A DNA stretch of 64,000 nt from the human T2T-CHM13v2.0 reference genome, Homo sapiens. The first letter of the stretch is position 1. Every line of letters begins with the position of its first letter. A program made the position numbers and the translations under genes. This document shows, piece by piece, positions 11,975 through 64,000 of this stretch. The stretch lies in assembly GCF_009914755.1 (NCBI RefSeq), contig NC_060933.1. One strand, 5' to 3'. The notes under the pieces were generated by a model, which saw only the letters and a list, made by a program, of their open reading frames with translations, was not told the origin of the DNA and ran no database searches.

Positions 11975-14900
11975 TTCCGGATGATTCCATTCCATTGCAT
12001 TCCATTCCATTACATTCCCCTGCACTCGGGTTGATTCCATTCCATTCCACTCCATTCCGTTCCATTCCATTCCATTCCATTGTATTCGGGTTAATTCCAT
12101 TCCATTCCATTCCATTCCATTCCATTCCATTCCATTCCATTACTATCGAGTTGATTCCATTCCATTCCATTCCATTCCAGTCCTTTCCATTCCATTCCAC
12201 TCGGGTTGATTCTATTCTATTAGATTCCATTCCATTCCATTCCCTTCCATTCCACTCTGGTTGATACCATTCCTTTCCATTCCACTCGAATACATTCCCT
12301 CCTATTCCACTCGGAACGATTCCATTCCATTCCATTCCATTCCATTCCATTCCATTCCATTCCATTCCATTCCATTTCGTTCCATTCCATTCTATTCCCT
12401 ATCATTCCATTCCATTCCATTCCATTCCATTCCATTCCATTCCATTCCATTCCATTACATTGTACTCAGGTTGATTCAATTCCATTGCATTCCATTCCAT
12501 TCCATTCCATTCCATTCCATTCCATTCCATTCCGTTCTATTCCATTCCATTACATTCGGATTGATTCTATTCAACTCCCTTACTCTCCATTACATTCCAT
12601 TCCATTCGGGTTGTTCCATTCCATTCCATTCCATTCCACTCCATTCCATTGCACTCGGGTTGATTCCATTCCATTCCATTCCATTCCATTCCATTCCATT
12701 CCATTCCATTCCATTCCGAATGATTCCATTCCATTGCATTCCGTTCCATTACATTCCCCTGTACTCGCGTTGATTCCATTCCATTCCATTCAATTCCGTT
12801 CCATTACAATTCGTTCCATTCCATTCTATTCCGTACAATTCCATTCCTTTCCATACCATTCCATTCCATTCCATTCCATTCCATTCCATTCCGTTGCATT
12901 CCGTTCCATTCCATTCCATTCCATTCTACTCGGATTAATTCCATTCCATTCCATTCCATTCCATTCCATTCCATTCTATTCCATTCCATTGCAATCGAGT
13001 TGAATCCATTGCATTCCATTCCATTCCATTCCATTCCATTCCATTCCATTCCATTCCGGAAGATTCCATTCCATTGCATTCCATTCCATTCCATTCCCCT
13101 GCACTCGCGTTGATTCCATTCCATTCCATTCCATTCCATTCCATTCCGTTCCGTACCATTCCATTCCATTCCATTCCATTCCATTCCGTTCCATTCCATT
13201 CCATTCCATTCTATTCGGGTTAATTCCATTCCATTCCATTCGATTGCAATCGAGTTGATTCCATTCCATTCTATTCCATTCCATTCCATTCCATTCCATT
13301 CCTTTCCATTCCATTACGGATGATTCCATTCCATTGCATTCCATTCCATTCCATTCCCCTGTACTCGGGTTGATTCCATTGCATTCCATTCCAATCCATG
13401 CCATTCCACTCGTGTTGATTCCATTCTTTCCATTCCATTCAAGTTGAATCCATTCCATTGCATTCCATTCCATTCCATTCCCCTGCAGTCGGGTTGATTC
13501 CATTCCCTTCCATTCGATTCCATTCCATTCCATTCCGTTCCGTTCCGTTCCATTCCATTCCATTCCATTCTATTCGGGTTAATTCCATTCCATTCCATTG
13601 CATTCCATTCCAATCGAGTTGATTCCATTCCATTCCATTCCATTCCATTCCACTCCATTCCAGTCCTTTCCATTCCATTCCACTCGGGTTGATTCCAATG
13701 TATTCCTTTCCATTCCATTCCATTCCATTGCATTCCGTTCCATTACATTCCCCTGCACTCGCGTTGATTCCATTCCATTCCATTCCATTCCATTCAATTC
13801 CATTCCATTACAATTCGTTCCATTCCATTCTATTCCGTACCATTCCAATCCATTCCATTCCAATCGAGTTGATTCCTTTCCATTCCATTCCATTCCATTC
13901 CACTCCATTCCAGTCCTTTCCATTCCATTCCACTCGGGGTGATTCCAATGTATTCCTTTCCATTCCATTCCATTCCATTGCAATCGAGTTGATTCCATTG
14001 CTTTGCATTCCATTCCATTCCATTCCATTCCGGATGATTCCATTCCATTGCATTCCATTCCATTCCATTCCCCTGCACTCGGGTTGATTCCATTCCATTC
14101 CACTCCATTCCGTACCATTCCATTCCATTCCATTCCATTGTATTCGGGTTAATTCCATTCCATTCCATTCCATTCCATTCCATTCCATTCCATTGCAATC
14201 GAGTTGATTCCATTCCATTTCATTCCATTCCATTCCATTACATTCCATTCCAATCGAGTTGATTCCATTCCATTTCATTCCATTCCATTCCATTCCATTC
14301 CATTCCATTCCATTCCAGTCCTTTCCATTCCATTCCACTCGGGTTGATTCCATTCTATTAGTTTCCATTCCATTCCATTCTCTTCCATTCCACTCTGGGT
14401 GATTCCATTCCTTTCCATTCCACTCGAATACATTCCCTCCTATTCTACTCGGAACGATTCCATTCCATTCCATTCCATTCCATTCCATTCCATTCCATTC
14501 CATTCCATTTCGTTCCATTCCATTCTGTTCCGTATCATTCCATTCCATTCCATTCCATTCCCTTTCATTCCATTCCATTACATTCCACTCGTGTTGATTC
14601 CATTCCTTTCCATTCCATTCGGTTTGAAGGCATTCCATTCCATTCCATTCCATTCCATTCCATTCCATTGTACTCGGGTTGATTCCATTCCATTGCATTC
14701 CATTCCATTCCAATCCGTTGCATTCCATTCCATTACATTCGGATTGATTCTATTCAACTCCCTTACTCTCCATTACATTCCATTCCATTCGGGTTGTTCC
14801 ATTCCATTCCATTCCGTTCCACTCCATTCCATTGCACTCGGGTTGATTCCATTCCATTCCATTCCATTCCATTCCATTCCGGATGATTCCGTTCCATTGC

Positions 14901-17900
14901 ATTCCGTTCCATTACATTCCCCTGCACTCGCGTTGATTCCATTCCATTCCATTCCATTCCATTCCATTCAATTCCATTCTATTACAATTCGTTCCATTCC
15001 ATTCTATTCCGTAGCATTCCATTCCATTCCATACCATTCCATTCCATTCCATTCCATTCCATTCCATTCCGTTCCGTTCCATTCCGTTCCATTCCATTCC
15101 ATTCCATTCTATTCGGGTTAATTCCATTCCATTCCATTCCAATCTATTCCATTCCATTGCAATCGAGTTGAATCCATTGCATTTCAATCCATTCCATTCC
15201 ATTCCATTCCATTCCATTCCATTGCAATCGAGTTGAATCCATTGCATTTCATTCCATTCCATTCCATTCCATTCCATTCCGGAAGATTCCATTCCATTGC
15301 ATTCCATTCCATTCCATTCCCCTGCACTCGCGTTGATTCCATTCCATTCCATTCCATTCCATTCCGTTCCGTTCCGTTCCATTTCATTCCATTCCATTCC
15401 ATTCCATTCAGTTCCGTTCCATTCCATTCCATTCCATTCTATTCGCGTTAATTCCATTCCATTCCATTCGATTGCAATCGAGTTGATTCCATTCCATTCC
15501 ATTCCATTCCGTTCCGGATGATTCCATTCTATTGCATTCCATTCCATTCCATTCCCCTGCAGTCGGGTTGATTCCATTCCATTCCATTCCATTCCATTCC
15601 ATTCCATTCCATTCCGGATGATTCCATTCCATTGCATTCCGTTCCATTACATTCCCCTGCACTCGCGTTGATTCCATTCCATTCCATTCCATTCAATTCC
15701 ATTCCATTACAATTCGTTCCATTCCATTCTATTCCGTTCCGTTCCATTCCATTCCATTCCATTCCATTCCGTTCCGTTCCATTCCATTGCATTCCATTCT
15801 ATTCGGGTTAATTCCATTCCATTCCATTCGATTGCAATCGAGTTGATTCCATTCCATTCCATTCCATTCCATTCCATTCCATTCCATTCCTTTCCATTCC
15901 GTTACGGATGATTCCATTCCATTGCATTCCATTCCAATCCATTCCCCTGTACTCGGGTTGATTCCATTCCATTCCATTCCAATCCATGCCATTCCACTCG
16001 TGTTGATTCCATTCTTTCCATTCCATTCAAGTTGAATCCATTCCATTGCATTCCATTCCATTCCATTCCCCTGCAGTCGGGTTGATTCCATTCCATTCCA
16101 TTCCATTCCAATCCATTCCATTCCACTCCGTTCCGTTCCATTCCATTCTATTCCATTCCATTATATTCGGGTTAATTCCATTCCATTCCATTCCATTCCA
16201 ATCGAGTTGATTCCATTCCATTCCATTCCATTCCATTCCACTCCATTCTAGTCCTTTCCATTCCATTCCACTCGGGTTGATTCCAATGTATTCCTTTCCA
16301 TTCCATTCCATTCCATTGCAATCGAGTTGATTCCATTGCTTTGCATTCCACTCCATTCCATTCCATTCCGGATGATTCCATTCCATTGCATTCCATTCCA
16401 TTCCATTCCCCTGCACTCGGGTTGATTCCATTCCATTCCACTCCATTCCGTTCCATTCCATTCCATGGCATTGTATTCGGGTTAATTCCATTCCATTCCA
16501 TTCCATTCCATTCCATTCCATCACAATCGGGTTGGTTCCATTCCATTCCATTCCATTCCATTCCATTCCATTCCATTCCGGATGATTCCATTCCATTACA
16601 TTCCGTTCCATTACATTCCCCTGCACTCGGGTTGATTCCATTCCATTCCATTCCATTCCATTCCATTCCATTCGATTCCATTCCATTCCAATTCTTTCCA
16701 TTCCATTCTCTTCCGTACCATTCCATTCCATTCCATACCATTCCATTCCATTCCATTCCATTCCGTTCCTTTCCGTTCCATTCCATTCCATTGCATTGTA
16801 TTCGGGTTAATTCCATTCCATTCCATTCCATTCTATTCCATTCCATTGCAATCGAGTTGAATCCATTGCATTCCATTCCATTCCATTCCATTCCATTCTG
16901 GAAGATTCCATTCCATTGCATTCCATTCCATTCCATTCCCCTGCACTCGCGTTGATTCCATTCCATTCCATTCCATTCCATTCCGTTCCGTTCCGTTCCG
17001 TTCCATTCCATTCCATTCCTTTCTATTCGGTTTAATTCCATTCCTTTCCATTCCATTCCATTCCATTCCATTCCAATCAAGTTGATTCCATTCCATTCCA
17101 TTCCATTCCATTCCATTCCGTTCCGTTCCATTCCATTCCATTCCATTCCATTCCATTCCGGATGATTCCATTCCATTGCATTCCGTTCCATTACATTCCC
17201 CTGCACTCGCGTTGATTCCATTCCATTCCATTCCATTCCATTCAATTCCATTCCATTACAATTCGTTCCATTCCATTCTATTCCGTACCATTCCATTCCA
17301 TTCAATTCCAATCGAGTTGATTCCTTTCCATTCCATTCCATTCCATTCCACTCCATTCCAGTCCTTTCCATTCCATTCCACTCGGGGTGATTCCAATGTA
17401 TTCCTTTCCATTCCATTCCATTCCATTGCAATCGAGTTGATTCCATTGCTTTGCATTCCATTCCATTCCATTCCATTCCGGATGATTCCATTCCATTGCA
17501 TTCCATTCCATTACATTCCCCTGCACTCGGGTTGATTCCATTCCATTCCACTCCATTCCGTTCCATTCCATTCCATTCCATTGTATTCGGGTTAATTCCA
17601 TTCCATTCCATTCCATTCCATTCCATTACAATCGAGTTGATTCCATTCCATTCCATTCCATTCCAGTCCTTTCCATTCCATTCCACTCGGGTTGATTCCA
17701 TTCTATTAGATTCCATTCCATTCCATTCCCTTCCATTCCACTCTGGTTGATACCATTCCTTTCCATTCCACTCGAATACATTCCCTCCTATTCCACTCGG
17801 AACGATTCCATTCCATTCCATTCCATTCCATTCCATTCCATTCCATTCCATTCCATTTCGTTCCATTCCATTCTATTCCGTATCATTCCATTCCATTCCA

Positions 17901-20900
17901 TTCCATTCCATTCCATTCCATTCCATTCCATTCCATTCCATTGTACTCAGGTTGATTCAATTCCATTGCATTCCATTCCATTCCATTCCATTCCATTCCA
18001 TTCCATTCCGTTCTATTCCATTCCATTACATTCGGATTGATTCTATTCAACTCCCTTACTCTCCATTACATTCCATTCCATTCGGGTTGTTCCATTCCAT
18101 TCCATTCCATTCCACTCCATTCCATTGCACTCGGGTTGATTCCATTCCATTCCATTCCATTCCATTCCATTCCATTCCATTCCGAATGATTCCATTCCAT
18201 TGCATTCCGTTCCATTACATTCCCCTGTACTCGCGTTGATTCCATTCCATTCCATTCAATTCCGTTCCATTACAATTCGTTCCATTCCATTCTATTCCGT
18301 ACAATTCCATTCCTTTCCATACCATTCCATTCCATTCCATTCCATTCCATTCCGTTGCATTCCGTTCCATTCCATTCCATTCCATTCTACTCGGATTAAT
18401 TCCATTCCATTCCATTCCATTCCATTCCATTCCATTCAATTCCATTCCATTGCAATCGAGTTGAATCCATTGCATTCCATTCCATTCCATTCCATTCCAT
18501 TCCATTCCGGAAGATTCCATTCCATTGCATTCCATTCCATTCCATTCCCCTGCACTCGCGTTGATTCCATTCCATTCCATTCCATTCCATTCCATTCCAT
18601 TCCATTCCGTTCCGTTCCATTCCATTCCATTCCATTCCATTCCATTCCGTTCCATTCCATTCCATTCCATTCTATTCGGGTTAATTCCATTCCATTCCAT
18701 TCGATTGCAATCGTGTTGATTCCATTCCATTCTATTCCATTCCATTCCATTCCATTCCATTCCTTTCCATTCCATTACGGATGATTCCATTCCATTGCAT
18801 TCCATTCCATTCCATTCCCCTGTACTCGGGTTGATTCCATTGCATTCCATTCCAATCCATGCCATTCCACTCGTGTTGATTCCATTCTTTCCATTCCATT
18901 CAAGTTGAATCCATTCCATTGCATTCCATTCCATTCCATTCCCCTGCAGTCGGGTTGATTCCATTCCCTTCCATTCGATTCCATTCCATTCCATTCCGTT
19001 CCGTTCCGTTCCATTCCATTCCATTCCATTCTATTCGGGTTAATTCCATTCCATTCCATTGCATTCCATTCCAATCGAGTTGATTCCATTCCATTCCATT
19101 CCATTCCATTCCACTCCATTCCAGTCCTTTCCATTCCATTCCACTCGGGTTGATTCCAATGTATTCCTTTCCATTCCATTCCATTCCATTGCATTCCGTT
19201 CCATTACATTCCCCTGCACTCGCGTTGATTCCATTCCATTCCATTCCATTCCATTCAATTCCATTCCATTACAATTCGTTCCATTCCATTCTATTCCGTA
19301 CCATTCCATTCCATTCCATTCCAATCGAGTTGATTCCTTTCCATTCCATTCCATTCCATTCCACTCCATTCCAGTCCTTTCCATTCCATTCCACTCGGGG
19401 TGATTCCAATGTATTCCTTTCCATTCCATTCCATTCCATTGCAATCGAGTTGATTCCATTGCTTTGCATTCCATTCCATTCCATTCCATTCCGGATGATT
19501 CCATTCCATTGCATTCCATTCCATTCCATTCCCCTGCACTCGGGTTGATTCCATTCCATTCCACTCCATTCCGTACCATTCCATTCCATTCCATTCCATT
19601 GTATTCGGGTTAATTCCATTCCATTCCATTCCATTCCATTCCATTCCATTCCATTGCAATCGAGTTGATTACATTCCATTTCATTCCATTCCATTCCATT
19701 ACATTCCATTCCAATCGAGTTGATTCCATTCCATTTCATTCCATTCCATTCCATTCCATTCCATTCCATTCCATTCCATTCCATTCCTTTCCATTCCATT
19801 CCACTCGGGTTGATTCCATTCTATTAGTTTCCATTCCATTCCATTCTCTTCCATTCCACTCTGGGTGATTCCATTCCTTTCCATTCCACTCGAATACATT
19901 CCCTCCTATTCTACTCGGAACGATTCCATTCCATTCCATTCCATTCCATTCCATTCCATTCCATTACATTCCACTCGTGTTGATTCCATTCCTTTCCATT
20001 CCATTCGGTTTGAAGGCATTCCATTCCATTCCATTCCATTCCATTCCATTCCATTGTACTCGGGTTGATTCCATTCCATTGCATTCCATTCCATTCCAAT
20101 CCGTTGCATTCCATTCCATTACATTCGGATTGATTCTATTCAACTCCCTTACTCTCCATTACATTCCATTCCATTCGGGTTGTTCCATTCCATTCCATTC
20201 CGTTCCACTCCATTCCATTGCACTCGGGTTGATTCCATTCCATTCCATTCCATTCCATTCCATTCCGGATGATTCCGTTCCATTGCATTCCGTTCCATTA
20301 CATTCCCCTGCACTCGCGTTGATTCCATTCCATTCCATTCCATTCCATTCCATTCAATTCCATTCTATTACAATTCGTTCCATTCCATTCTATTCCGTAG
20401 CATTCCATTCCATTCCATACCATTCCATTCCATTCCATTCCATTCCATTCCATTCCGTTCCGTTCCATTCCGTTCCATTCCATTCCATTCCATTCTATTC
20501 GGGTTACTTCCATTCCATTCCATTCCAATCTATTCCATTCCATTGCAATCGAGTTGAATCCATTGCATTTCAATCCATTCCATTCCATTCCATTCCATTC
20601 CATTGCAATCGAGTTGAATCCATTGCATTTCATTCCATTCCATTCCATTCCATTCCATTCCGGAAGATTCCATTCCATTGCATTCCATTCCATTCCATTC
20701 CCCTGCACTCGCGTTGATTCCATTCCATTCCATTCCATTCCATTCCATTCCGTTCCGTTCCGTTCCATTTCATTCCATTCCATTCCATTCCATTCAGTTC
20801 CGTTCCATTCCATTCCATTCCATTCTATTCGGGTTAATTCCATTCCATTCCATTCGATTGCAATCGAGTTGATTCCATTCCATTCCATTCCATTCCGTTC

Positions 20901-20985
20901 CGGATGATTCCATTCTATTGCATTCCATTCCATTCCATTCCCCTGCAGTCGGGTTGATTCCATTCCATTCCATTCCATTCCATTC
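11975..20985 (+). repeat. Direct duplication D2: about 11975-15600 repeated at about 17475-20985 (offset about 5.39-5.50 kb)
   Basis: Identical ORF pairs 13314/18775 and 13439/18900 (offset 5461) and 14763/20149 (5386). Shared starts at 12261/17747 (5486) and 14399/19865 (5466). Confidence 0.9.
13053..20671 (-). promoter_or_regulatory. Five perfect three-unit heat shock element motifs (nGAAnnTTCnnGAAn on the - strand)
   Basis: attccggaagattcc at 13053, 15276, 18504 and 20657, and attctggaagattcc at 16895. The motif match is direct; function is inferred. Confidence 0.6.
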
Positions 20986-21199
20986 CATTCCATTCCATTC
21001 CGTTCCATTCCATTCCATTCCATTCTATTCAGGTTAATTCCATTCCATTCCTTTCCATTCCATTCCATTCCATTCCAATCGAGTTGATTCCATTCCATTC
21101 CATTCCATTCCATTCCACTCCATTCCAGTCCTTTCCATTCCATTACACTCGGGTTGATTCCGTTCTATTCCTTTCCATTCCATTCCATTCCATTGCAAT

Positions 21200-24100
21200 C
21201 GAGTTGATTCCATTGCTTTGCATTCTATTCCATTCCATTCCATTCCGGATGATTCCATTCCATTGCATTCCATTCCATTCCATTCCCCTGCACTCGGGTT
21301 GATTCCATTCCATTCCACTCCATTCCGTTCCATTCTAGTCCATTCCATTGTATTCGGGTTAATTCCATTCCATTCCATTCCATTCCATTCCATTACAATG
21401 TAGTTGATTCCATTCCATTCCATTCCATTCCATTCCATTCCAGTCCTTTCCATTCCATTCCACTCGGGTTGATTCCATTCTATTAGTTTCGATTCCATTC
21501 CATTCCCTTCCATTCCAATCTGGTTGATTCCATTCCTTTCCATTCCACTCGAATACATTCCCTCGTATTCCACTCAGAACGATTCCATTCCATTCCATTC
21601 CATTCCATTCCATTCCATTCCATTCCATTCCAGTTCGTTCCATTCCATTCTATTCCGTACCATTCTATTCCATTCCATTCCTTTCCATCCCATTCCATTC
21701 CACTCGTGGTGATTCCATTCCTTTCCATTCCATTCGGTTTGAAGGCATTCCATTCCATTCAATTCCATTCCATTCCATTCCATTCCATTCCATTCCATTG
21801 TACTCGAGTTGATTCCATTCCATTGCATTCAATTCCATTCCATTCCATTCCATTGTACTCGAGTTGATTCCATTCCATTGCATTCCATTCCATTCCATTC
21901 CATTCCATTCTGTAGCATTCCATTCCATTACATTCGGATTGATTCTATTCAACTCCCTTACTCTCCATTACATTCCATTCCATTCGGGTTGTTCCATTCC
22001 ATTCCATTCCATTCCACTCCATTCCATTGCACTCGGGTTGATTCCATTCCATTCCATTCCATTCCATTCCATTCCGGATGATTCCATTCCATTGCATTCC
22101 GTTCCATTACATTCCCCTGCACTCGCGTTGATTCCATTCCATTCCATTCCATTCCATTCAATTCCATTCCATTGCAATTCGTTCCATTCCATTCTATTCC
22201 GTACCATTCCATTCCATTCCGTTCCATTCTGTTCCTTTCCATTCCATTCCATTCTATTCGGATTAATTCCATTCCATTCCATTCCGTTCCATTCCATTCC
22301 ATTCCATTCCTTTCCATTCCATTACATTCCATTTCGTTCCATTCCATTCTATTCCGTACGATTCCATTGCATTCCATTCCATTCCATTCCTTTGCATTCC
22401 ATTGAAATCGAGTTGATTCCATTCCATTCCGTTCCATTCCATTCCATTCCATTCCATTCCGGATGATTCCATTCCACTGCATTCCATTCCATTAAATTCC
22501 CCTGCACTTGGGGTGATTCCTTTCCATTCTATTCTATTCCATTCCATTCCATTCCATTTCATTGCAATCGAGTTGATTCCATTGCATTCCATTCCATTCC
22601 ATTCCAGTCCTTTCCATTCCATTCCACTCGGGTTGATTCCATTCTATTCCTTTCCATTCCATTCGATTCCATTCCATTCCACTCTGGTTGATACCATTCC
22701 TTTTCATTCCACTCGAAAACATTCCCTTCTATTCCACTCGGAATGATTCCATTCCATTCCATTCCATTCCATTCCATTCCGTTTCGTTCCATTACATTCT
22801 ATTCCGTACCATTCCACTCCATTCCATTCCATTCCATTCCATGCCATTCCTCTCGGGTTGATTCCATTCCTTTCCATTCCATTAGGGTTGAATCCATTCC
22901 ATTCCATTCCATTCCATTCCATTCCATTCCATTCCATGCCATTCCACTCGGGTTGATTCCATTCCTTTCCATTCCATTCGAGTTGAATCCATTCCATTCC
23001 ATTCCATTCCATTCGATTCCATTCCATTGCACACGGGTTCATTTCATTCCATTCCATTCCATTCCATTTAGTTCCATTCCATTCTATTCCATACCATTCC
23101 ATTCCATTGCATTCCATTCCACTCCATTCCATGCTATTCCTCTCGGGTTTATTCCATTCCTTTCCATTCCATTCGGATTGAATCCATTCCTTTCCATTCA
23201 ATTCCATTCCACTCGATTCCATTACATTGCAGTCGTGTTGTTTCCATTCCATTCCATTCCATTCCATTTCATTCTATTCCATTCCATTCCATTCCATTCC
23301 ATTCCATTCCATTCCATGCCATTCCACTCGGGTTGATTCCATTCCTTTCCATTCCATTCGAGTTGAAACCATTCCATTCCATTCCATTCCATTCTATTCC
23401 ATTCCATTCCAATCCATTGCACACGGGTTCATTCCATTCCATTCCATTCCATTCCATTCCATTCCATTCCATTCCATTCCATTTCGTTCCATTCCATTCT
23501 ATTCCGTACCATTCCATTCCATTCCATTCCATTCCATTCCATGCCATTCCACTCGGTTTTTTCCATTCCTTTCCATTCCATTCGGGTTGAATCCATTCCT
23601 TTCCATTCCATTCCGTTCAATTCCATTCCATTGCACTCGGGTTGATTCCATTCCATTCCATGCCATTCCATTTCATTCCGTTCCATTCCATTCCATTACT
23701 TTCGGATTGATTCTTTTCAATTCCCTTACACTCCATTTCATTCCATTCCATTCGGGTAGTTTCCTTTCCATTCCATTCCATTCCACTCCATTGCATTGCA
23801 CTCGGGTTGATAGATTCCATTCCATTCCATTCCATTCCATTCCATTCCATTCCATTCCATTCCGGATGAATCCATTCCATTGCATTCCATTCCATTCCAT
23901 TCCCCTGCACACGGGTTGATTCCATTCCATTCCATTCCATTCCATTCCGTTCCATTCCATTCCATTCCATTCCATTCTGTTCAGGTTAATTCCATTCCAT
24001 TCCATTCCATTCCATTCCATTCCATTCCATTCCATTCCATTCCATTGCAATCGAGTTGTTTCCATTGCATTCCTTTCCATTCCATTCCATTGCATTCCAT

Positions 24101-27100: not shown

Positions 27101-28683
27101 CCATTCTATTTGCGTTAATTCCGTTCCATTCCATTCCATTACATTCCTTTGCAATCGAGTTGATTCCATTCCATTCCATTCCATTCCATTCCATTCCATT
27201 CCATTCCATGCCATTCCACTCGGGTTGATTCCATTCCTTTCCATTCCATTCGAGTTGAATCCATTCCATTCCATTCTATTCCATTCGATTCCATTCCATT
27301 GCTCACGTGTTCATTCCATTCCATTCCATTCCATTCCATTCCATTCCATTTCTTTCCATTCCATTCTCTTCCGTAGTATTCCATTCCATTCCATTCCACT
27401 CCATTCCATGCCATTCCACTCGGGTTTATTCCATTCCTTTCCATTCCATTCGGGTTGAATTCATTCCATTCCATTCCACTCCATTCCATTCAATTCCATT
27501 ACATTGCACTCGGGTTGATTCCATTGCATTCCATTCCATTTCAATCCATTCCCTTCCATTCCATTTCATTCCATTCCATTCCATTCCATTCCATTCCATT
27601 CCATTCCATTCCATGCCATTCCACTCGAGTTGATTCCATTACTTTCCATTCCATTCTAGTTGAACCCATTCCATTCCATTCCATTCCATTCCATTCCATT
27701 GCACACGGAATGGAATGGAATGGAAACAACCCGAATGGAATGGAATGTAATGGAGTGTAAGGGAATTGAATACAATCAATCCGAATGTAATGGAATGGAA
27801 TGGAACGGAATGGAATGGAATGGAATGCAGTGGAATGGAATCAAACCTAGTGCAATGGAATGGAATGCAATGGAATGGAATGGAATGGAATGGAAGGGAT
27901 TGGATTCAACCCAAATGGAATGGAAAGCAATGGAATCAAACCGAGTGGAATGGCATGGAATGGAATGGAATGGTACAGAATAGAATGGAATGGAACGAAA
28001 TGGAATGGAATGGAATGGAATGGAACGGAATGGAATTAACGCGAGTAGAATGGAATGGAATGTAATGGAACGGAATGGAATGGAATGGGATGGAATGGAA
28101 TCAATCTGAGTGCAGGGGAATGGAATGGAATGGAATGCAATGGAATGGAATGGAATGGAATGGAATGCAATGGAATCAACTAGATTGCAATGGGATGGAA
28201 TGGAATGGAATGGAATGGAAGGGAATGGAATGGAATGAAATTAACCTGAACAGAATGGAATGGAATGGAATGGAACGGAATGGAAGGGAATGGAATGGAA
28301 TGGAATTAACCTGAACAGAATGGAATAGAATGGAATGGAACGGAATGGAATGGAATGGAATGGAATGGAATGCAATGGAATGGGATCAACCCAAGTGCAG
28401 GGGAATGGAATGGAATGGAATGCAATGGAATGGAATCAATCAACCCGAGTGCAATAGAATGCAGTGGAATGGAATGGAATGGAATGGAAAGTACCCGAAT
28501 GGAATGGAATGTAATGGAGTGTAAGGGAATTAAAAAGAATCAATCCGAATGTAATGGAATGGAATTGAAAGGAAAGGAATGGAAAGGAATGGAACGGAAT
28601 GGAACGGGATGAAATGGAATGGCATAGAACGGAATGGAATCAACCCGAGCGCAATGGAATGGAATGGAATGGAATGGAATGGA
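21200..28683 (+). repeat. Direct duplication D1, copy 2
   Basis: Near-identical to 1-7484, including the strand-switch junction. Differences seen are two whole-pentamer indels and two substitutions corresponding to 5248 and 5259. Confidence 0.95.
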
Positions 28684-28934
28684 TTCAACCCGAATGGAAT
28701 GGAAAGGAATGGAATAAACCCGAGTGAAATGGCATGGAAGGGAATGGAATGGAATGGAATGGTACGGAGTAGAATGGAATGGAACGAAATGGAATGGAAT
28801 GGAATGGAATGGAATGGAATGAACCCGTGAGCAATGGAATGGAATGGAATGGAATGGAATGGAATGGAAGGGAATGGAATGGGTTCAATTCGAATGGAAT
28901 GGAAAGGAATGGAATCAACCCGAGTGCAATGGCA

Positions 28935-46960: not shown

Positions 46961-47099
46961 TGGAATGGATAGGAACGGAATAGAATTGAATGGAATGGAA
47001 TGGAATGCAATGGAATGGAATCAACCCGAGTACAATGGAATGAAATGGAATGGAATGGAATGGAATGGAATGGAATGGAATGGAACGGAATGGAACGGA

Positions 47100-54400: not shown

Positions 54401-57400
54401 GGAATGGAATGGAATGGAACGGAATGGAGTGGAATGGAATGGAATCAACCCGAGTGCATGGGAATGGAATGGAAAGGAATGCAATGGAATGGAATCATCC
54501 GGAATGGAATGGAATGGAATGGAATGCAAAGCAATGGAATCAACTCGATTGCAATTGAATGGAATGGAATGGAAAGGAATAGAATGGAATCAACCCGAGT
54601 GTAATGGAATGGAAACGACTGGAATGGAGTGGAATGGAATGGAATGGAATGGAATGGAATGGAATCAACTCGATTGGAATGGAATGGAATGGAATGGAAT
54701 GGAATGGAATTAACCCGAATAGAATGGAATGGAATGGAATGGAACGGAATGGAATGGAATGGAATGGAATGGAATCAACCCGACTGCAGGGGAATGGAAT
54801 GAAATGGAATGGAATGGAATGGAATCATCCGGAACGGAATGGAATGGAATGGAATGGAATCAACTCGATTGCAATGGAATGGAATGGAATGGAATGGAAT
54901 AAAATGGAATGGAATGGAATTAACCGGAATAGAATGGAATGGAATGGAATGGAACGGAATGGTATGGAATGGAATGGAATGGAATTTAATGGAATGGAAT
55001 GGAATCAACCCGAGTGCAGGGGAATGGAATGGAATGGAATGCAATGGAATGGAATCATCCGGAATGGAATGGAATGGAATGGAATGCAATCAACCTGATG
55101 CAATGGAATGGAGTGGAATGGAATGGAATGGAATGGAAACATCCCGAATGTAATGGAATGTAATGGAGTGTAAGGGAATTGAATAGAATCAATCCGAATG
55201 TAATGGAATGGAATGGAATGAAATGGAAAGGAATGGAATGGAATGGAATGGAATCAACCCGAGTGCAATGGAATGGATTCGAATGGAATGGAATGGAATG
55301 GAATGGATTCAACAAGAGTGGAATGGAAAGGAATGGAATCAACCCGAGTGTAATGGCATGGAATGGAACGGAATGGAATGGGATGGAATGGAATGGTACG
55401 GAATAGAATGGAATGGAATGATATGGAATGGAATGGAATGGAATGGAATGGAATGGAATGGAATGGAATGAACCCGTGTGCAATGGAATGGAATGGAATG
55501 GAATGGAATGGATTCAACTCGAATGGAATCAACTCGATTGCAATGGAATGGAATGGAATTGAAAGGAATAGAATGGAATCAACCCGAGTGGAATGGAATG
55601 GAAAGGACTGGAATGGAGTGGAATGGAATGGAATGGAATTAACCCGAATAGAATGAAATGGAACGGAATGGAATGGAATGGAATGGAATGGAATGGAATG
55701 GAATCAACCCGAGTGCAGGGGAATGGAATGGAATGGAATGCAATGGAATGAAATCATCCGGAATGGAATGGAATGGAATGGAATGGAATGGAATGGAATC
55801 AACTCGATTTCAATGGAATGGAATGGAATAGAATGGAATGGAATTAACACGAAAGAATGGAATGGAATGGAATGGAATGGAATGGAATGGAAAAGAAAGG
55901 AATGGAAAGGAATGGAATGGAATCAACCCAAGTGCAGGGGAATGGAATGCAATGGAATTCAATGGAATGGAATCATCCGGAATGGAATGGAATGGAATGG
56001 AATGGAATGGAATGGAATGGAATGGAATGGAATGGAATCAACCCGAGTGCAATGGAATGGAGAGGAATGGAATGGAATGGAATGGAAACTACACGAATGG
56101 AATGGAATGTAATGGAGTGTAAGGGAATTGAATAGAATGAATCCGAATGGAATGGAATGGAATGGAATGGAATGGAATGGAATGGAAAGGAATGGAATGG
56201 AATGGAATGGAATGGAATGGAATGCAATGCCATGGAATCAACCCAAGTGCAATCGAATGGAATCGAATGGAATGGAATGCAATGGAATGGATTGAACTTG
56301 AATGGAATGGAAAGAATGGAATCATAACGAGTGGAATGGCATGGTTTGGAATGGAATGGAATGGAATCAACTCGATTGCAATCGAATGGAATGGAATGGA
56401 ATTAACCCGAATAGAATGGAATGGAATGGAATGGAATGGAACGGAACGGAATGGAATGGAATGGAATGGAATGGAATGGAATGGAATGCAATGGAATGGA
56501 ATCAACGCGAGTGCAGGGAAAAGGAATGGAATGGAATGCAATGGAATGGAATCTTCCGGAATGGAATGGAATGGAATGGAATAGAATGGAATGGAATGGA
56601 ATGGAATGGAATGGAATCAACCCGAGTACAGGGGAATGGAATGGAATGTAATGCAGTGGAATGGAATCATTCGTAATGGAATGGAAAGGAATGGAATGGA
56701 ATGGAAAGGAATGGAATGCAATGGAATGGAATCTTCCGGAATGGAATAGAATTGAATGCAATGGATTCAACTCGATTGCAATGGAATGGAATGGAATGGA
56801 ATTGAATGCAATGGATTCATCTCTACTGCAATGGAATGGAATAGAATGGAATGGAACGGAATGGAATGGAATTAACCCGAATAAAATGGAATGGAATGGA
56901 ATGGAACGGAACGGAACAGAACGGAACGGAATGGAATGGAATGGAATGGAATGGAATGGTGTGGAATGGAATGGAATGTAAGGAATAGAATGGAATGGAA
57001 ACAATTGGAATGGAATGGAATCGAATGGAATGGAATGGAATGGAATGGAATGGAATCAACCCGAGTGCAGGGGAATGTAATGGAATGGAATGTAATGGAA
57101 TGGAATCATCCGGAATGGAATGGAATGGAATGGAATGGAATGGAATGGAACCAACTCGATTGTGGTGGAATGGAATGGAATGGAATGGAATGGAATGGAA
57201 TTAACCCGAAAACAATGCAATGGAATGGAATGGAACGGAATGGAGTGGAATAGAATGGAATCATCCCGAGTGCAGGGGAATGGAATGGAATGGAATGCAA
57301 TGGAATGGAATCATCCGGAATGGAATGCAAAGCAATGGAATCAACTCGATTGCAATGGAATGGAATGGAATGGAAAGGAATACATTGGAATCAACCCGAG

Positions 57401-60400
57401 TGGAATGGAATGGAAAGGACTGGAATGGAGTGGAATGGAATGGAATGGAATGGAATGGAATCAACTCGATTGGAATGGAATGGAATGGAATGGAATGGAA
57501 TGGAATGGAATTAACCCGAATAGAATGGAATGGAATGGAATGGAATGGAACGGAACGGAACGGAACGGAACGGAATGGAATGGAATGGAATGGAATGGAA
57601 TGGAATGGAATCAACCCGACTGCAGGGGAATGGAATGGAATGGAATGCAATGGAATGGATTCAACTTGAATGGAATGGAAAGAGTGGAATCAACACGAGT
57701 GGAATGGCATGAATTGGAATGGAATGGAATGGAATCAACCCGAGTACAGGGGAATGGAATGGAATGGTATGCAATGGAATGGAATCATCCGTACTGGAAT
57801 GGAAAGCAATGGAATGGAATGGAATGGAATGGAATGGAATGGAATCAACTCGATTGCAGTCGAATGGAATGGAATGGAATTAACCTGAATAGAATTGAAT
57901 GGAATGGAATGGAACGGAACGGAACGGAATGGAATGGAATGGAATGGAATGGAATGGAACGGAACGGAATGGAATGGAATGGAATGGAATGGAATGGAAT
58001 CAACGCGAGTGCAGGGGAATGGAATGGAATGGAATGCAATGGAATGGAATCTTCCGGAATGGAATGGAATGGAATGGAATGGAATGGAATGAAATGCAAT
58101 GGATTCAACTCGATTGCAATGGAATGGAATAGAACGGAATGGAATGGAATGGAATAGAATGAACCCGAATAGAATGGAATGGAATGCAATGCAACGGAAT
58201 GGAACGGAATGGAATGGAATGGAATGGAATGGAATGGTATGGAATGGAATGGAATGGTACGGAATATAATGGAATGTAACTAATTGTAATTTAATGGAAT
58301 TGAATGGAATGGAATGGAATCAACGCGAGTGCAGGGGAATGTAATGGAACGGAATGCAATGGAATGGAATCATCCGGAATGGAATGGAATGGAATGGAAG
58401 GGAAGGGAATGGAATCAACCCGAGTGCAATGGAATGGAGTGGAATGTTATGGAATGGAATGGAACAACCCGAATGGAATGGAATGTAATGGAATGTAATT
58501 GAGTTGAATAGAATCAATCCGAATGTAATGGAATGGAATGCAACGGAATGGAATGGAATGGAAAGCAATGGAATGCAATCAACCAGAGTACAATGGAATG
58601 GAATGGAATGGAATGGAATGCCTTCAAACCGAATGGAATGGAAAGGAATGGAATCAACACGAGTGGAATGGAATGGAATGGAATTGAATGGAAGGGAATG
58701 ATACGGAATAGAATGGAATGGAACGAAATGGAATGGAATGGAATGGAATGGAATGGAATGGAATCGTTCTGAGTGGAATAGGAGGGAATGTATTCGAGTG
58801 GAATGGAAAGGAATGGAATCAACCAGATTGGAATGGAAGGGAATGCAATGGAATGGAAACTAATAGAATGGAATCAACCCGAGTGGAATGGAATGGAAAG
58901 GACTGGAATGGAATGGAATGGAATGGAATCAACTCGATTGTAATGGAATGGAATGGAATGGAATGGAATGGAATGGAATTAACCCGAATACAATGGAATG
59001 GAATGGAATGGAACGGAATGGAGTGGAATGGAATGGAATCAACCCAAGTGCAGGGGAATGGAATGGAATGGAATGCAATGGAATGGAATCATCCGGAATG
59101 GAATGGAATGGAATGGAATGCAAAGCAATGGAATCAACTCGATTGCAATGGAATGGAATGGAATGGAAAGGAATACATTGGAATCAACCCGAGTGGAATG
59201 GAATGGAAAGGACAGGAATGGAGTGGAATGGAATGGAATGGAATGGAATGGAATCAACTCGATTGGAATGGAATGGAATGGAATGGAATGGAATGGAATT
59301 AACCCGAATAGAATGGAATGGAATGGAACGGAACGGAACGGAATGGAATGGAATGGAATGGAATGCAATGGAATGGAATGGAATGGAATCAACCCGACTG
59401 CAGGGGAATGGAATGGAATGGAATGCAATGGAATGGATTCAACTTGAATGGAATGGAAAGAATGGAATCAACACGAGTGGAATGGCATGGATTGGAATGG
59501 AATGGAATGGAATGAACCCGAGTACAGGGGAATGGAATGGAACGGAATGCATTGGAATGGAATCATCCGGAATGGAATGGAATGGAATGGAATGGAATGG
59601 AATGGAATGGAATCAACTCGATTGCAATCGAATGGAATGGAATGGAATTAACCCGAATAGAATGGAATGGAATGGAATGGAACGGAACGGAATGGAATGG
59701 AATGGAATGGAATGGAATGGAACCGAACGGAACGGAATGGAATGGAATGGAATCAACGCGAGTGCAGGGGAATGGAATGGAATGGAATGCAATGGAATGG
59801 AATCTTCCGGAATGGAATGGAATGGAATGGAATGCAATGGATTCAACTCGATTGCAATGGTATGGAGTAGAATGGAATGGAATGGAATGGAATGGAATGG
59901 AATGGAATTAACTCGAATAGAATGGAATGGAAGGGAACGGAATGGAACGGAACGGAACGGAACGGAATGGAATGGAATGGAAGGGAATGGAATGGAATGG
60001 AATGATATGGAATGGAATGGAATGGAATGGAGTCAACGCGAGTGCAGGGGAATGTAATGGAACAGAATGCAATGGAATGGAATCATCCGGAATGGAATGG
60101 AATGGAATGGAATGGAATGGAATGGAATGGAATGGAATCAACCCGAGTGCAATGGAATGGAGTGGAATGGAATGGAATGGAATGGAACAACCCGAATGGA
60201 ATGGAATGTAATGGAGAGTAAGGCAGTTGAATAGAATCAATCCGAATGTAATGGAATGGAACGGAATGGAATGGAATGGAATGGAATGGAATGGAATGGA
60301 ATGGAATGGAATGGAATGCAAAGGAATGGAATCAACCCGAGTACAATGGAATGGAATGGAATGGAATGGAATGGAATGGAATGGAATGGAATCCACCCGA

Positions 60401-63400
60401 GTGCAATGGAATGGAGAGGAATGGAATGGAATGGAATGGAAACTACCCGAATGGAATGGAATGTAATGGAGTGTAAGGGAATTGAATAGAATCAATCCGA
60501 ATGGAACGGAATGGAATGGAACGGAATGTAATGTAATGGAATGGAATGGAATCAACCCGAGTGCAGGGGAATGGAATGGAATGGAATGCAATGGAATGGA
60601 ATCATCCGGAATGGAATGTAATGGAATGCAATGGAATGGAATGGAATGGAATCAACCCGAGTGCAATGGAATGGAGTGAAATGGAATGGAATGGAATCGA
60701 ATGGAAATAACCAGAATGGATTGGAATATAATGGAGTTAAGGGAATTGAATAGAATCAATCTGAATGTAATGAAATGGAATGGAACGGAATGGAATGCAA
60801 TGGAATGGAACGGAATGGAATGGAATGCAATGGAATGGAATCAACCCGAGTACAGGGGAATGGAATGGAATGGAATGCAATGGAATGGAATCATCCGTAA
60901 TGGAATGGAAAGCAATGGAATGGAATGGAATGGAATGGAATGGAATGGAATGGAATGGAATCAACTCGATTGCAATCGAATGGAATGGAATGGAATTAAC
61001 CCGAATAGAATGGAATGGAATGGAATGGAATGGAACGGAAAGGAATGGAATGGAACGGAATGGAATGGAATGGAATGGAACGGAACGGAATGGAATGGAA
61101 TGGAATTGAATGGAATGGAATGGAATCAACCCAACTGCAGGGGAATGGAATGGAATGGAATGCAATGGAAAGGAATCATGCGGAACGGAATGCAATGGAA
61201 TGGAATGGAATCAACACGAGTGCAATGGAATGGAGTGGAATGGAATGGAATGGAATGGAATGGAACTACCCGAATGGAATGGAATGTAATGGAGAGTAAG
61301 GGAGTTGAATAGAATCAATCCGAATGTAATGGAAAGGAATGGAAAGGAATGGAATGGAATGGAATGGAATGCAATGGAATGGAATCAAACCGAGTACAAT
61401 GGATTGGAATGGAATGGAATGGAATGGAATGGAATCAACACGAGTGCAATGGAATGGAGTGGAATGGAATGGAATGGAATGGAACAACGCGAATGGAATG
61501 GAATGTAATGGAGAGTAAGGGAGTTGAATAGAAACAATCCGAATGTAATGGAATGGAATGGAATGGAATGGAATGGAATGGAATGGAATGGAATGCAATG
61601 GAAGGGAATCAACCCGAGTACAATGGAATGGAATGGAATGGAATGGAATGGAATGGAATGGAATGGAAAGAATGGAATGGAATCAACCCGAGTGCAATGG
61701 AATGGAGAGGAATGGAATGGAATGGAATGGAAACTACCCGAATGGAATGGAATGTAATGGAGTGTAAGGGAATTGAATAGAATCAATCCAAATGGAATGG
61801 AATGGAATGGAACGGAATGTAAAGAATGGAATGGAATGGAATCAACGCGAGTGCAGGGGAATGGAATGGAATGGAATGCAACGGAATGGAATCATCCGGA
61901 ATGGAATGGAATGGAATGCAATGGAATGGAATGGAATGGAATCAACCCGAGTGCAATGGAATGGAGTGAAATGGAATGGAATGGAATGGAAACAACCAGA
62001 ATGGATTGGAATATAATGGAGTGTAAGTGAATTGAATAGAATCAATCTGAATGTAATGAAATGGAATGGAACGGAATGGAATGGAATGGAATGGAATGGA
62101 ATGGAATGGAATGGAATGGAATTAACCGGAATAGAATGGAATGCAATGGAATGGAACGGAATGGAATGGAATGGAAGGTAATGGAATCAACACGAGTGCA
62201 GCGGAATGGAATGGAAAGGAATGCAATGGAATGGAATCATCCGGAATGCAATGGAATGGAATGGAATGGAATGGAATGGAATGGAATGGAATCAACCCGA
62301 GTGCAATGGAATGGAGTGGAATGGAATGGAATGGAATGGAACTATCCGAATGTAATGGAATGTAATGGAGAGTAAGGGAGTTGAATAGAATCAATCAGAT
62401 TGTAATGGAATGGAACGGAATGGAATGGAATGGAATGGAATGGAATGGAATGCAATGGAATGGAATCAACCCGAGTACAATGGAACGGAATGGAATGGAA
62501 TGTAGTGGAATGGAATGGAATGGAATGGAATGGAATCAACCCGAGTGCAATGGAATGGAGAGGAATGGAATGGAATGGAATGGAAACTACCCGAATGGAA
62601 TGGAATGTAATGGAGCGTAAGGGAATTGAATAGAATCAATCCGAATGGAATGGAATGGAATGGAACGGAATGTAATGGAATGGAATGGAATGGAATCAAC
62701 CCGAGTGCAGACGAATGGAATGGAATGGAATGCAATGGAAAGGAATCATCCGGAATGGAATGGAATGGAATGCAATGGAGTAGAATGGAATGGAATCAAC
62801 CCGAGTGCAATGGAATGGAGTGAAATGGAATGGAATGGAATGGAAACAACCAGAATGGATTGGAATATAATGGAGTGTAAGGGAATTGAATAGAATCAAT
62901 CTGAATGTAATGGAATGGAATGGAACGGAATGGAATGGAATGGAATGGAATGCAATGGAATGGAATGCAATGGAATGGAATCAACCCGAGTGCAATCGAA
63001 TGGAATCGAATGGAATGGAATGCAATGGAATGGATTCAACTTGAATGGAATGGAAAGAATGGAATCAACACGAGTGGAAGGGCATGGATTGGAATGCAAT
63101 GGAATGGAATCAACTCGAGTACATGGGAATGGAACGGAATGGAATGCAATGGAATGGAATCATCCGTAATGGAATGGAAAGGAATGAAATGGAATGGAAT
63201 GGAATGGAATGGATTGGAATGGAATGGAATCAACATGATTGCAATCGAATGGAATGGAATGGAATTAACCCTAATAGAATGGAATGGAATGGAATGGAAC
63301 GGAACGGAATGGAATGGAATGGAATGGAATGGAATGGAACGGAACGGAAGGGAATGGAATGGAATGGAATGGAATGGAATGGAATGGAATGGAATGGAAT

Positions 63401-64000
63401 CAACGCGAGTGCAGGGGAATGGCATGGAATGGAATACAATGGAATGGAATCTTCCAGAATGGAATGGAATGGAATGGAATGGAATGGAATGAAATGCAAT
63501 GGATTCAACACGATTGCAATGGAATGGAATAGAATGGAATGGAATGGAATGGAATGGGATTAACCCGAATAGAATGGAATGGAATGGAATGGAACGGAAT
63601 GGAACGGAATGGAATGGAATGGAATGGAATGGAATGGAATGGAATGGTATGGAATGGAATGGAATGGTACGGAATAGAATGGAATGGAACGAATTTTAAT
63701 GGAATGGAATTGAATGGAATGGAATGGAATCAACGCGAGTGCAGGGGAATGTAATGGAATGGAATTGAATGGAATGGAATGGAATGGAATGGAATCAACG
63801 CGAGTGCAGGGGAATGTAATGGAACGGAATGCAATGGAATGGAATCATCCGGAATGGAATGGAATGGAATGGAATGGAATGGAATCAACCCGAGTGCAAT
63901 GGAATGGAGTGGAATGGAATGGAATGGAATGGAACAACCCGAATGGAATGGAATGTAATGGAGAGTAAGGGAGTTGAATAGAATCAATCCGAATGTAATG
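48490..64000 (+). repeat. Direct duplication D5: about 48490-52900 repeated at about 59590-64000 (offset about 11.1 kb; runs off the window end)
   Basis: ORF pairs 48568/59667, 49383/60482, 51527/62626 and 52615/63714 (11,099), 50211/61305 (11,094), 50664/61773 (11,109). Shared private words gagtgcagacgaat, gagtgcagcggaat, gagcgtaaggg and cgaattttaatgg. Confidence 0.92.

What the first reader, a model, noticed from the sequence alone, without database searches (positions are those of the whole stretch)
13053..63460. A single-base variant cassette creates perfect HSF1 heat shock elements, confined to one satellite sub-type
Seen: the common cassette GGAATCATCCGGAAT has a sister form GGAATCTTCC(G/A/T)GAAT, which parses as gGAAt-cTTCc-nGAAt, a perfect three-unit inverted HSE. 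I count at least 19 copies (5 in 13.0-20.7 kb, 14 in 44.1-63.5 kb) and saw none in 1-13.0 kb or 20.7-44.1 kb. Most lie about 35 bp downstream of CAACGCGAGTGCAGGGG. Established: HSF1 trimers bind alternating nGAAn units, whereas plain (GGAAT)n offers only head-to-tail units. HSF1 binds SatIII (notably 9q12) and drives G-rich SatIII transcription and nuclear stress bodies. Inference: these discrete cassettes may be the high-affinity nucleation and initiation sites, giving the array patchy 'promoter' and 'non-promoter' domains whose dosage changes with each duplication.
Basis: partly seen in the sequence, partly recalled or inferred. Interest (0 to 1): 0.8.

Follow-up and report, generated by a model that had tools for sequence, protein, structure and literature searches.

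The report
Perfect heat-shock elements in 9q12 satellite
A one-base change in a recurring piece of the chromosome 9 satellite III array creates textbook binding sites for the heat-shock factor HSF1 about every 2 kb, which probably explains why this array is HSF1's main target, although the general idea is already in print.

Summary
The window holds 19 copies of GGAATCTTCC[G/A/T]GAAT, 14 on the + strand and 5 on the − strand where the array is inverted. They are the only inverted nGAAn pairs in all 64 kb.

The T-form is one A>T change in a conserved ~75-bp sub-repeat module. It is tightly linked to a CAACGCGAG anchor, so it spread by amplification of one module type rather than by 19 separate events.

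Genome-wide there are 13,118 copies. That is 17% of all perfect three-unit HSEs, and by sampling almost all lie in the 27.6-Mb 9q12 HSat3 array at about 0.5 per kb. The few small samples of chr15 HSat3 and chr1/chr16 HSat2 had none. Yq12 has its own perfect HSE variant.

This fits the known primary HSF1 targets, 9q12 and Yq12. HSF1 preference for the T-form, nucleation and initiation were not testable here.

The concept is already published: Penin 2021 for Yq12, an unpublished observation for 9q12 in Vourc'h 2022, and Franklin 2025, where HSF1 motifs sit in HSat3 sub-regions that are ChIP-enriched. The base-level origin, linkage and copy numbers appear to be new detail.

The parts
13053..13067 (-). 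perfect 3-unit HSE cassette GGAATCTTCCGGAAT (G-rich strand is the − strand here)
   Evidence: exact G anchor 45 bp upstream
15276..15290 (-). HSE cassette GGAATCTTCCGGAAT
16895..16909 (-). HSE cassette, CpG-decayed form GGAATCTTCCAGAAT
18504..18518 (-). HSE cassette; duplicate of 13053 (offset 5451)
20657..20671 (-). HSE cassette; duplicate of 15276 (offset 5381)
44187..44201 (+). HSE cassette GGAATCTTCCGGAAT
44860..44874 (+). HSE cassette
45257..45271 (+). HSE cassette GGAATCTTCCTGAAT; no anchor upstream; T before the third GAA is a disfavoured base per Feng 2021
46753..46767 (+). HSE cassette (anchor with 1 mismatch)
47232..47246 (+). HSE cassette (anchor with 1 mismatch)
47531..47545 (+). 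HSE cassette; 299-bp local duplicate of 47232
48695..48709 (+). HSE cassette
52337..52351 (+). HSE cassette GGAATCTTCCAGAAT
53877..53891 (+). HSE cassette (anchor with 1 mismatch)
56548..56562 (+). HSE cassette (anchor with 1 mismatch)
56728..56742 (+). HSE cassette without anchor upstream
58046..58060 (+). HSE cassette
59799..59813 (+). HSE cassette; duplicate of 48695 (offset 11104)
63446..63460 (+). HSE cassette GGAATCTTCCAGAAT; duplicate of 52337 (offset 11109)
12001..22000 (-). left HSE-bearing block, rich in CAACGCGAG-anchored modules (2-3 per 2 kb); contains a duplication with ~5.4 kb offset
44001..64000 (+). right HSE-bearing block; G-anchored modules present in 8 of its ten 2-kb bins; contains a duplication with ~11.1 kb offset
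1..12000 (.). HSE-free block: 12 CATCC cassettes, 0 CTTCC, G anchor in 2 of 6 bins; 1-7484 is duplicated at +21.2 kb
22001..44000 (.). HSE-free block; within 28-40 kb only one cassette of either form (34718), and a ~6.2-kb tandem duplication

Best explanation
The window is 9q12 HSat3 of subfamily B5. It contains a conserved ~75-bp sub-repeat module: GGAATCAAC[C/G]CGAGTGCAGGGG, then a 28-bp spacer, then GGAATC[A/T]TCCGGAAT.

In one module lineage, an A>T change turned the pentamer CATCC into CTTCC. That lineage has the G anchor and an all-GGAAT spacer. Flanked by GGAAT units, the change gives gGAAt-cTTCc-gGAAt, a perfect head-to-head plus tail-to-tail three-unit heat shock element with the preferred pyrimidine-purine (CG) step before the last GAA.

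Unequal exchange and segmental duplication then amplified this module with the array. There are now about 13,000 copies at a mean spacing of roughly 2 kb, interrupted by 10-25 kb blocks built from other module types.

Because an HSF1 trimer optimally contacts three alternating units, these cassettes are most likely the highest-affinity HSF1 sites of the array. They would be the sites first occupied on heat shock. The surrounding head-to-tail GGAAT units and the CATCC near-HSEs would then add weaker, cooperative binding.

Shown here: the sequence anatomy, linkage, copy number and distribution. Inferred: higher HSF1 affinity, nucleation of nuclear stress bodies, and any role as promoters.
For: Anatomy and exclusivity in the window:
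- 19 cassettes make up all perfect HSEs and all inverted nGAAn dimers in the window.
- The aligned contexts show a single conserved module.

Linkage to one module type:
- Window: T-form with G anchor 17/19, with C anchor 0/19.
- 154 kb ascertained by anchor alone: G-anchored modules that are not type II carry a perfect HSE in 48/63, C-anchored in 0/265, A-anchored in 0/20.
- Genome-wide at fixed spacing: G+T 8,759, C+T 142, G+A 4,719, C+A 10,112.

Abundance:
- 13,118 cassettes against 21 for the reversed control.
- That is 17% of the 76,189 perfect HSEs in the genome and 41% of the excess over the reversed control of 43,994.

Distribution:
- chr9 array: 22 cassettes in 20 x 2 kb samples across 51.0-75.7 Mb, with 16/20 samples positive.
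- chr9 array: 5, 4, 6 and 6 cassettes in the 10-kb samples at 49.4-50.2 Mb.
- 0 perfect HSEs in 4 x 2 kb of chr15 HSat3, 3 x 2 kb of chr1 HSat2 and 2 x 2 kb of chr16 HSat2.
- Yq12 has its own variant, GGAATGTTCTGGAAG: 4,836 copies at about 3.55-kb period.

Print:
- 9q12 and Yq12 are the primary HSF1 targets, and DYZ1 has four perfect HSEs per 3,564 bp (Penin 2021, PMC7889540, passages).
- HSF1 motifs lie in sub-regions of HSat3, and ChIP-seq is enriched there (Franklin 2025, passages).
Against: - No binding or transcription data were examined here. Preference for CTTCC over CATCC is untested.
- The CATCC form matches 8 of 9 core bases and keeps the guanine contact in all three units. The affinity gap may therefore be modest.
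- Recombinant HSF1 shifts the 158-bp 9q12 clone pHuR98, whose nGAAn layout the authors call non-canonical. It needs more than 12.5 ng, against more than 3 ng for a consensus HSE (Jolly 2002).
- HSF1 DBD has been crystallised on head-to-tail SatIII repeats (cited in Feng 2021).
- The chr9 array also has a higher GGAAT density (about 225 per 2 kb) than chr15 (about 140 per 2 kb) and is the largest array. Size and density are therefore confounders.
- The off-chr9 samples are small: 8, 6 and 4 kb.
- The cassette carries a CpG in methylated heterochromatin. The effect of methylation on HSF1 is unknown to me.
Confidence: 0.6

Rival explanations
1. Neutral passenger. The A>T change is a selectively and functionally unimportant sub-repeat polymorphism that drifted to about 38% of cassette sites by array homogenisation. 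HSF1 accumulation at 9q12 is driven by mass action and cooperativity on millions of head-to-tail GGAAT units and near-HSEs, together with array size and chromatin state, and the perfect cassettes add little.
For: - Copy number is fully explained by amplification of one module, through duplications at 299 bp, 5.4, 6.2, 11.1 and 21.2 kb.
- HSF1 binds non-canonical pHuR98 in vitro, and there is a crystal structure on head-to-tail SatIII.
- chr9 has the largest array and the highest GGAAT density.
- Heat-shock transcripts map across the whole array (Rabeler 2024, section 16).
Against: - Yq12 samples have a GGAAT density like chr15 (123-140 against 137-142 per 2 kb). Yet Yq12 carries perfect HSEs and is a primary target, while chr15 samples have none.
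- Franklin et al. report ChIP enrichment following HSF1-motif density inside arrays, whereas GGAAT-based TEAD motifs are even.
- pHuR98 needed about four times more HSF1 than a consensus HSE.
Confidence: 0.25
2. The cassette is chiefly a site for another factor. On the C-rich strand the T-form reads CCGGAAG, which I recall as an optimal ETS core, and the A-form reads CCGGATG. The variant would then switch ETS-family site quality rather than, or in addition to, HSF1 binding.
For: Read directly from the sequence (reverse complement of the cassette). The ETS consensus is recalled and was not tested by any search.
Against: - Franklin et al. found only one ETS-family motif (ETV5-FOXO1) heavily enriched in HSat3, and list no ETS factor among those discussed in the passages I saw.
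- The CpG lies in methylated heterochromatin, and many ETS factors are methylation-sensitive (recalled).
- No known ETS-dependent biology exists at 9q12.
Confidence: 0.07
3. Each cassette is a promoter from which a G-rich SatIII transcript starts, so the array is a string of ~2-kb transcription units and cassette-free blocks are silent.
For: - Median spacing in the window is 1.5 kb and mean array spacing about 2.1 kb. Reported transcripts are 2-5 kb and more (Vourc'h 2022, passage).
- Penin 2021 speaks of many transcription units.
Against: - I found no TSS mapping in print.
- An HSE is an upstream or enhancer element and carries no core promoter.
- Nothing in the sequence sets direction, since the HSE is near-symmetric.
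- Transcripts map across the whole array.
Confidence: 0.3

Closest known systems
Perfect HSEs in the Yq12 DYZ1 SatIII unit (Penin et al. 2021, PMC7889540)
   Same: Canonical three-unit HSEs interspersed in a GGAAT-rich satellite that is a primary HSF1 target. Here one of them, GGAATGTTCTGGAAG, was found 4,836 times, about once per 3.55 kb on chrY.
   Different: The sequence, origin and satellite subfamily differ. The 9q12 cassette is a CATCC>CTTCC change in a short module, spaced irregularly (180-3,647 bp in the window), not a fixed position in a 3.56-kb higher-order unit.
HSF1-motif-dense sub-regions of HSat3 arrays (Franklin et al., bioRxiv 10.1101/2024.10.22.616524)
   Same: Patchy HSF1 motifs inside HSat3, with heat-shock HSF1 ChIP-seq enriched where motifs are dense. 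This is almost certainly the same sites seen at lower resolution.
   Different: In the passages I saw, that work does not give the motif instance, its single-base origin, its linkage to a module type or its copy number. The terms 'CTTCC' and 'TTCCGGAA' are absent from its text. Its figures and supplements were not visible to me.
Promoter HSEs of heat-shock genes, such as the HSP70 proximal HSE
   Same: Alternating inverted nGAAn units bound by an HSF1 trimer.
   Different: There is no adjacent annotated gene or core promoter. The sites are present in about 13,000 copies inside constitutive heterochromatin. Each is exactly three units long and is flanked by head-to-tail units.
pHuR98 (D9Z3) 9q12 SatIII clone used in HSF1 EMSA (Jolly et al. 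2002, PMC2173303)
   Same: Same locus and satellite, with direct HSF1 binding shown in vitro.
   Different: The authors state that its nGAAn organisation differs from a canonical HSE. The cassette described here is canonical. I could not see the clone's sequence (it is in a figure), so I cannot say which cassette form it holds, if any.

Membership tests
Canonical heat shock element (HSE) | At least three contiguous, alternately inverted nGAAn units | tested here: met
   All 19 match GAAnnTTCnnGAA on the G-rich strand. The definition is as given in Feng 2021.
Canonical heat shock element (HSE) | Guanine of each GAA present in all three units | tested here: met
   9 of 9 core bases match in all 19. 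The common CATCC form also keeps the guanines (8 of 9).
Canonical heat shock element (HSE) | Auxiliary preference: pyrimidine-purine step between TTC and the following GAA, with no thymine directly before GAA | tested here: met
   18 of 19 meet it, with CG in 15 and CA in 3. One (45257) has CT and fails. The rule is from Feng 2021 passages.
Canonical heat shock element (HSE) | Occupied by HSF1 trimers on heat shock | not testable with these tools
   Only region-level evidence in print (Franklin 2025). No read-level data are available here.
Canonical heat shock element (HSE) | Confers heat-inducible transcription on adjacent DNA | not testable with these tools
   9q12 HSat3 is heat-induced as a whole (Rabeler 2024). 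The contribution of the cassette is unknown.
HSat3 subfamily B5 array of 9q12 | Lies inside the annotated hSat3_9_3(B5) interval of T2T-CHM13 | tested here: met
   The window is chr9:52,948,001-53,012,000. The interval chr9:52,732,572-72,971,764 is given in the Rabeler 2024 figure legend.
HSat3 subfamily B5 array of 9q12 | GGAAT-rich with CAACCCGAGT-type interruptions | tested here: met
   205-241 GGAAT per 2 kb, with anchors throughout. I did not run the published subfamily k-mer classifier.

The most novel reading that the evidence does not exclude
The single A>T substitution was the founding event that turned the chr9 HSat3-B5 array into the main HSF1 sink and stress-body organiser. HSE-bearing modules were then preferentially amplified. 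Together with an independently arisen HSE in the Yq12 DYZ1 unit, they account for essentially the whole genomic excess of perfect HSEs: 13,118 on chr9, plus about 4 x 4,836 on Y, against an excess of 32,195. The copy number of this one 15-mer, which varies with every array duplication, would then set an individual's HSF1-buffering capacity and stress-body size. Cassette-free blocks would act as internal insulators between transcription units.
Probability: 0.2. Interest if true: 0.7.

Novelty: new member of a known kind. Interest (0 to 1): 0.42.

Why it matters
Since 2002 the field has held that the nGAAn units of 9q12 SatIII are not arranged as a canonical HSE. Structural work modelled HSF1 on head-to-tail repeats.

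A defined 15-mer gives a concrete molecular handle on why 9q12 is the primary stress-body locus. It is present about 13,000 times, makes up a sixth of all perfect HSEs in the genome, and is absent from the few small samples taken of other large GGAAT satellites.

It also turns the question of what HSF1 binds in SatIII into a simple k-mer test on existing ChIP-seq data. And it offers a countable genotype, T-form copy number, for studying variation between individuals in the non-coding heat-shock response.

The gain is moderate, because the concept of HSEs embedded in SatIII and motif-dense HSat3 sub-regions is already published.

Tried and rejected
- BLAST self-comparison of the window printed nothing at strict settings and timed out at looser ones. 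I replaced it with an exact 48-mer diagonal analysis.
The first accepted call spent 13 of its 20 regions on sequence proximal to the array. Array-wide figures therefore rest on 20 x 2 kb plus 4 x 10 kb.
- An ungapped per-position conservation test of HSE core against flank was abandoned. It was confounded by 5-bp indels, by ascertainment and by identity by descent, so I make no claim about selective constraint.
- I considered and dropped a search for core-promoter elements (Inr, TATA, CCAAT) next to the cassette. No convincing match was visible by eye in the contexts, and the test would be weak.
- Literature searches for TSS or PRO-seq mapping of SatIII on T2T found nothing usable.
- Searches for the 15-mer, its reverse complement and the anchor in paper texts found no satellite paper. 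Figures and bioRxiv supplements are not searchable and might show it.
- Chance as an explanation is rejected.
- Assembly error is rejected, given thousands of identical copies.

Full report
**What is there**

The window is chr9:52,948,001-53,012,000 of T2T-CHM13. It lies inside the interval annotated hSat3_9_3(B5) (Rabeler 2024, PMC11622622, figure legend and section 16).

GGAATCTTCC[G/A/T]GAAT occurs 19 times: 14 on the + strand between 44,187 and 63,460, and 5 on the − strand between 13,053 and 20,671. There are none elsewhere.

The five left-hand copies are on the − strand because the array itself flips. Orientation runs are 1-6500 −, 6501-9750 +, 9751-27750 − and 27751-64000 +. On the G-rich strand all 19 read the same way.

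Fifteen copies carry CG at the variable step, three carry CA and one carries CT. The sister form GGAATCATCCGGAAT occurs 53 times.

**More than chance, but not 19 events**

Every perfect GAAnnTTCnnGAA in the window is this cassette. The window also contains exactly 19 GAAnnTTC and 19 TTCnnGAA dimers. So outside the cassettes there is not a single inverted pair of nGAAn units in 64 kb.

Markov shuffles of order 1, 3 and 5 give 3.05, 0.65 and 0.5 perfect elements.

The excess comes from amplification. Aligned contexts show that both cassette forms occupy the same position in a conserved ~75-bp module. The module is GGAATCAAC[C/G]CGAGTGCAGGGG, a 28-bp spacer, then GGAATC[A/T]TCCGGAAT.

| Window, cassette form | G anchor (CAACGCGAGTGCA at −45) | C-type anchor | A-type anchor | No anchor |
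|---|---|---|---|---|
| T-form (19) | 17 | 0 | 0 | 2 |
| A-form (53) | 12 (11 with a distinct GTAATGGAAC spacer) | 34 | 5 | 2 |

The window is itself a mosaic of duplications:
- 1-7484 recurs at +21.2 kb.
- 28.9-35.2 kb recurs at +6.2 kb.
- 49.2-52.7 kb recurs at +11.1 kb.
- 12.9-15.6 kb recurs at +5.4 kb.

At least five cassettes are copies made by these events or by a 299-bp duplication.

Cassette sites in the two positive blocks are 19 T to 30 A. In the rest of the window they are 0 T to 23 A. Fisher p is 3e-4, although the sites are not independent. G-anchored modules are nearly absent where the T-form is absent.

**Beyond the window**

The whole assembly holds 13,118 matches to the cassette, against 21 for the reversed control. 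It holds 21,381 of the CATCC form. It holds 76,189 perfect three-unit HSEs of any sequence, against 43,994 for the reversed control.

The cassette is thus 17% of all perfect HSEs and 41% of the excess over control. The tool warns that repeat counts are lower bounds.

At fixed anchor-to-cassette spacing, the genome-wide table is as follows.

| Anchor | T-form | A-form |
|---|---|---|
| G anchor | 8,759 | 4,719 |
| C anchor | 142 | 10,112 |

The first listed places are on chr9, apart from a few on chr5.

| Sample | Result |
|---|---|
| chr9, 20 x 2 kb across 51.0-75.7 Mb | 22 cassettes, 16 of 20 samples positive |
| chr9, 10-kb pieces at 49.4-50.2 Mb | 5, 4, 6 and 6 cassettes |
| chr9, 10-kb piece at 49.125 Mb | 0 T-forms, 24 A-forms |
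| chr15 HSat3, 4 x 2 kb | 0 perfect HSEs |
| chr1 HSat2, 3 x 2 kb | 0 perfect HSEs |
| chr16 HSat2, 2 x 2 kb | 0 perfect HSEs |
| chrY, 5 GGAAT-rich 2-kb pieces | 4 perfect HSEs of other sequence |

About 0.5 per kb over 27.6 Mb accounts for essentially the whole genomic total.

Ascertaining modules by anchor alone in 154 kb gave these fractions with a perfect HSE:
- G-anchored modules that are not type II: 48/63.
- C-anchored modules: 0/265.
- A-anchored modules: 0/20.

One of the chrY variants, GGAATGTTCTGGAAG, occurs 4,836 times. It recurs about every 3.55 kb on chrY from 27.9 Mb, with only 46 scattered copies on chr1 to chrX.

**Mechanism**

Established knowledge, from passages of Feng 2021 (PMC8379338):
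- An HSF trimer optimally contacts three alternating nGAAn units.
- Specificity rests mainly on an arginine-guanine contact.
- A pyrimidine-purine step before GAA is preferred.
- Thymine directly before GAA is disfavoured.

The T-form meets all of these in 18 of 19 copies. I therefore infer that the cassettes are the highest-affinity HSF1 sites in the array and are occupied first on heat shock. The surrounding head-to-tail GGAAT units and the 8-of-9 CATCC near-HSEs would add weaker cooperative binding.

The distribution supports this reading. The two arrays that carry perfect HSEs, 9q12 and Yq12, are the two primary HSF1 targets (Penin 2021, PMC7889540, passages). The chr15 samples have a GGAAT density like Yq12 and carry none.

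Franklin et al. report HSF1 motifs in sub-regions of HSat3, with heat-shock ChIP-seq enriched there (bioRxiv 10.1101/2024.10.22.616524, passages).

**Against this reading, and untested**

- I examined no binding data.
- HSF1 shifts the non-canonical 9q12 clone pHuR98 in vitro, though it needs more protein than a consensus HSE (Jolly 2002, PMC2173303, passages).
- HSF1 DBD has been crystallised on head-to-tail SatIII (cited in Feng 2021).
- chr9 is also the largest and most GGAAT-dense array, which is a confounder.
- Heat-shock transcripts map across the entire array. This fits the widespread cassettes, but it does not show that cassette-free blocks are silent.
- The claim that transcription initiates at the cassettes has no support beyond the match between ~2-kb spacing and reported transcript sizes.
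- I found no TSS mapping in print.

**Novelty**

The following is already in print:
- Perfect HSEs interspersed in Yq12 SatIII (Penin 2021).
- "Putative HSEs over stretches of SATIII" at 9q12, given as an unpublished observation (Vourc'h 2022, PMC9032817, passage).
- "HSE-like sequences scattered" in HSat3 (EMBO J review, PMC10505914, passage).
- Motif-dense, ChIP-enriched sub-regions (Franklin 2025).

The following was not found in print:
- The cassette sequence itself, its single-base origin, its linkage to the G-anchored module, or its share of genomic HSEs.
- The 15-mer, its reverse complement and the anchor occur in no satellite paper text, and not in Franklin's text.
- Figures and closed supplements could still hold them.

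I therefore file this as a new, well-defined member of a known kind, of moderate interest.

Noticed in passing
window ~6500, ~9750, ~27750: There are three strand inversions of the GGAAT array within 64 kb, located at 250-bp resolution. The first and third are copies of one another, because 1-7484 is duplicated at +21.2 kb.
   Followed up: partly
G000 C9, e.g. 57352064/57356593 vs 67971975/67976504 and 58218180/58219922 vs 68849837/68851579: Rare C-anchor plus T-form modules recur in the same order at an offset of about 10.6 Mb. This suggests a megabase-scale duplication inside the chr9 HSat3 array (list).
   Followed up: no
all 19 cassettes, e.g. 44187-44201: On the C-rich strand the T-form reads CCGGAAG and the A-form reads CCGGATG, which I recall as ETS-type cores. 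The cassette also holds a CCGG site with a CpG. All 53 A-forms keep the CpG, while 4 of 19 T-forms have lost it (3 CA, 1 CT).
   Followed up: no
window, 15 copies (positions not listed): A second recurrent near-HSE matches 8 of 9 HSE core bases: GGAAACTACCCGAAT (11 copies) and GGAAAGTACCCGAAT (4 copies). Its module context was not examined.
   Followed up: no
L016 (G000 C9:49125001-49135000) and L014 (C9:48575001-48585000): The proximal chr9 HSat3 blocks are of other sub-types. L016 has 24 CATCC cassettes and 14 C anchors per 10 kb but no T-form. L014 is GGAAT-rich with 2 CATCC cassettes and no HSE.
   Followed up: no
G000 C5:49.60-49.92 Mb: A chr5 HSat3 array carries the cassette mainly as GGAATCATCCCGAAT (C instead of G, so no CpG), with a few CTTCCC copies. 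The CATCC cassette is therefore not specific to chr9.
   Followed up: no
G000 C24 from 27,905,311: The chrY perfect HSE GGAATGTTCTGGAAG recurs about every 3.53-3.57 kb, once per DYZ1 unit. It is almost all on one strand (4,639 forward against 197 reverse). This probably explains part of the forward/reverse asymmetry of all perfect HSEs.
   Followed up: partly
window 28000-40000: A ~12-kb stretch holds only one cassette of either form (34718). It has raised GGATTCAAC counts and is built from a ~6.2-kb tandem duplication. It is a distinct sub-type inside the B5 array.
   Followed up: no
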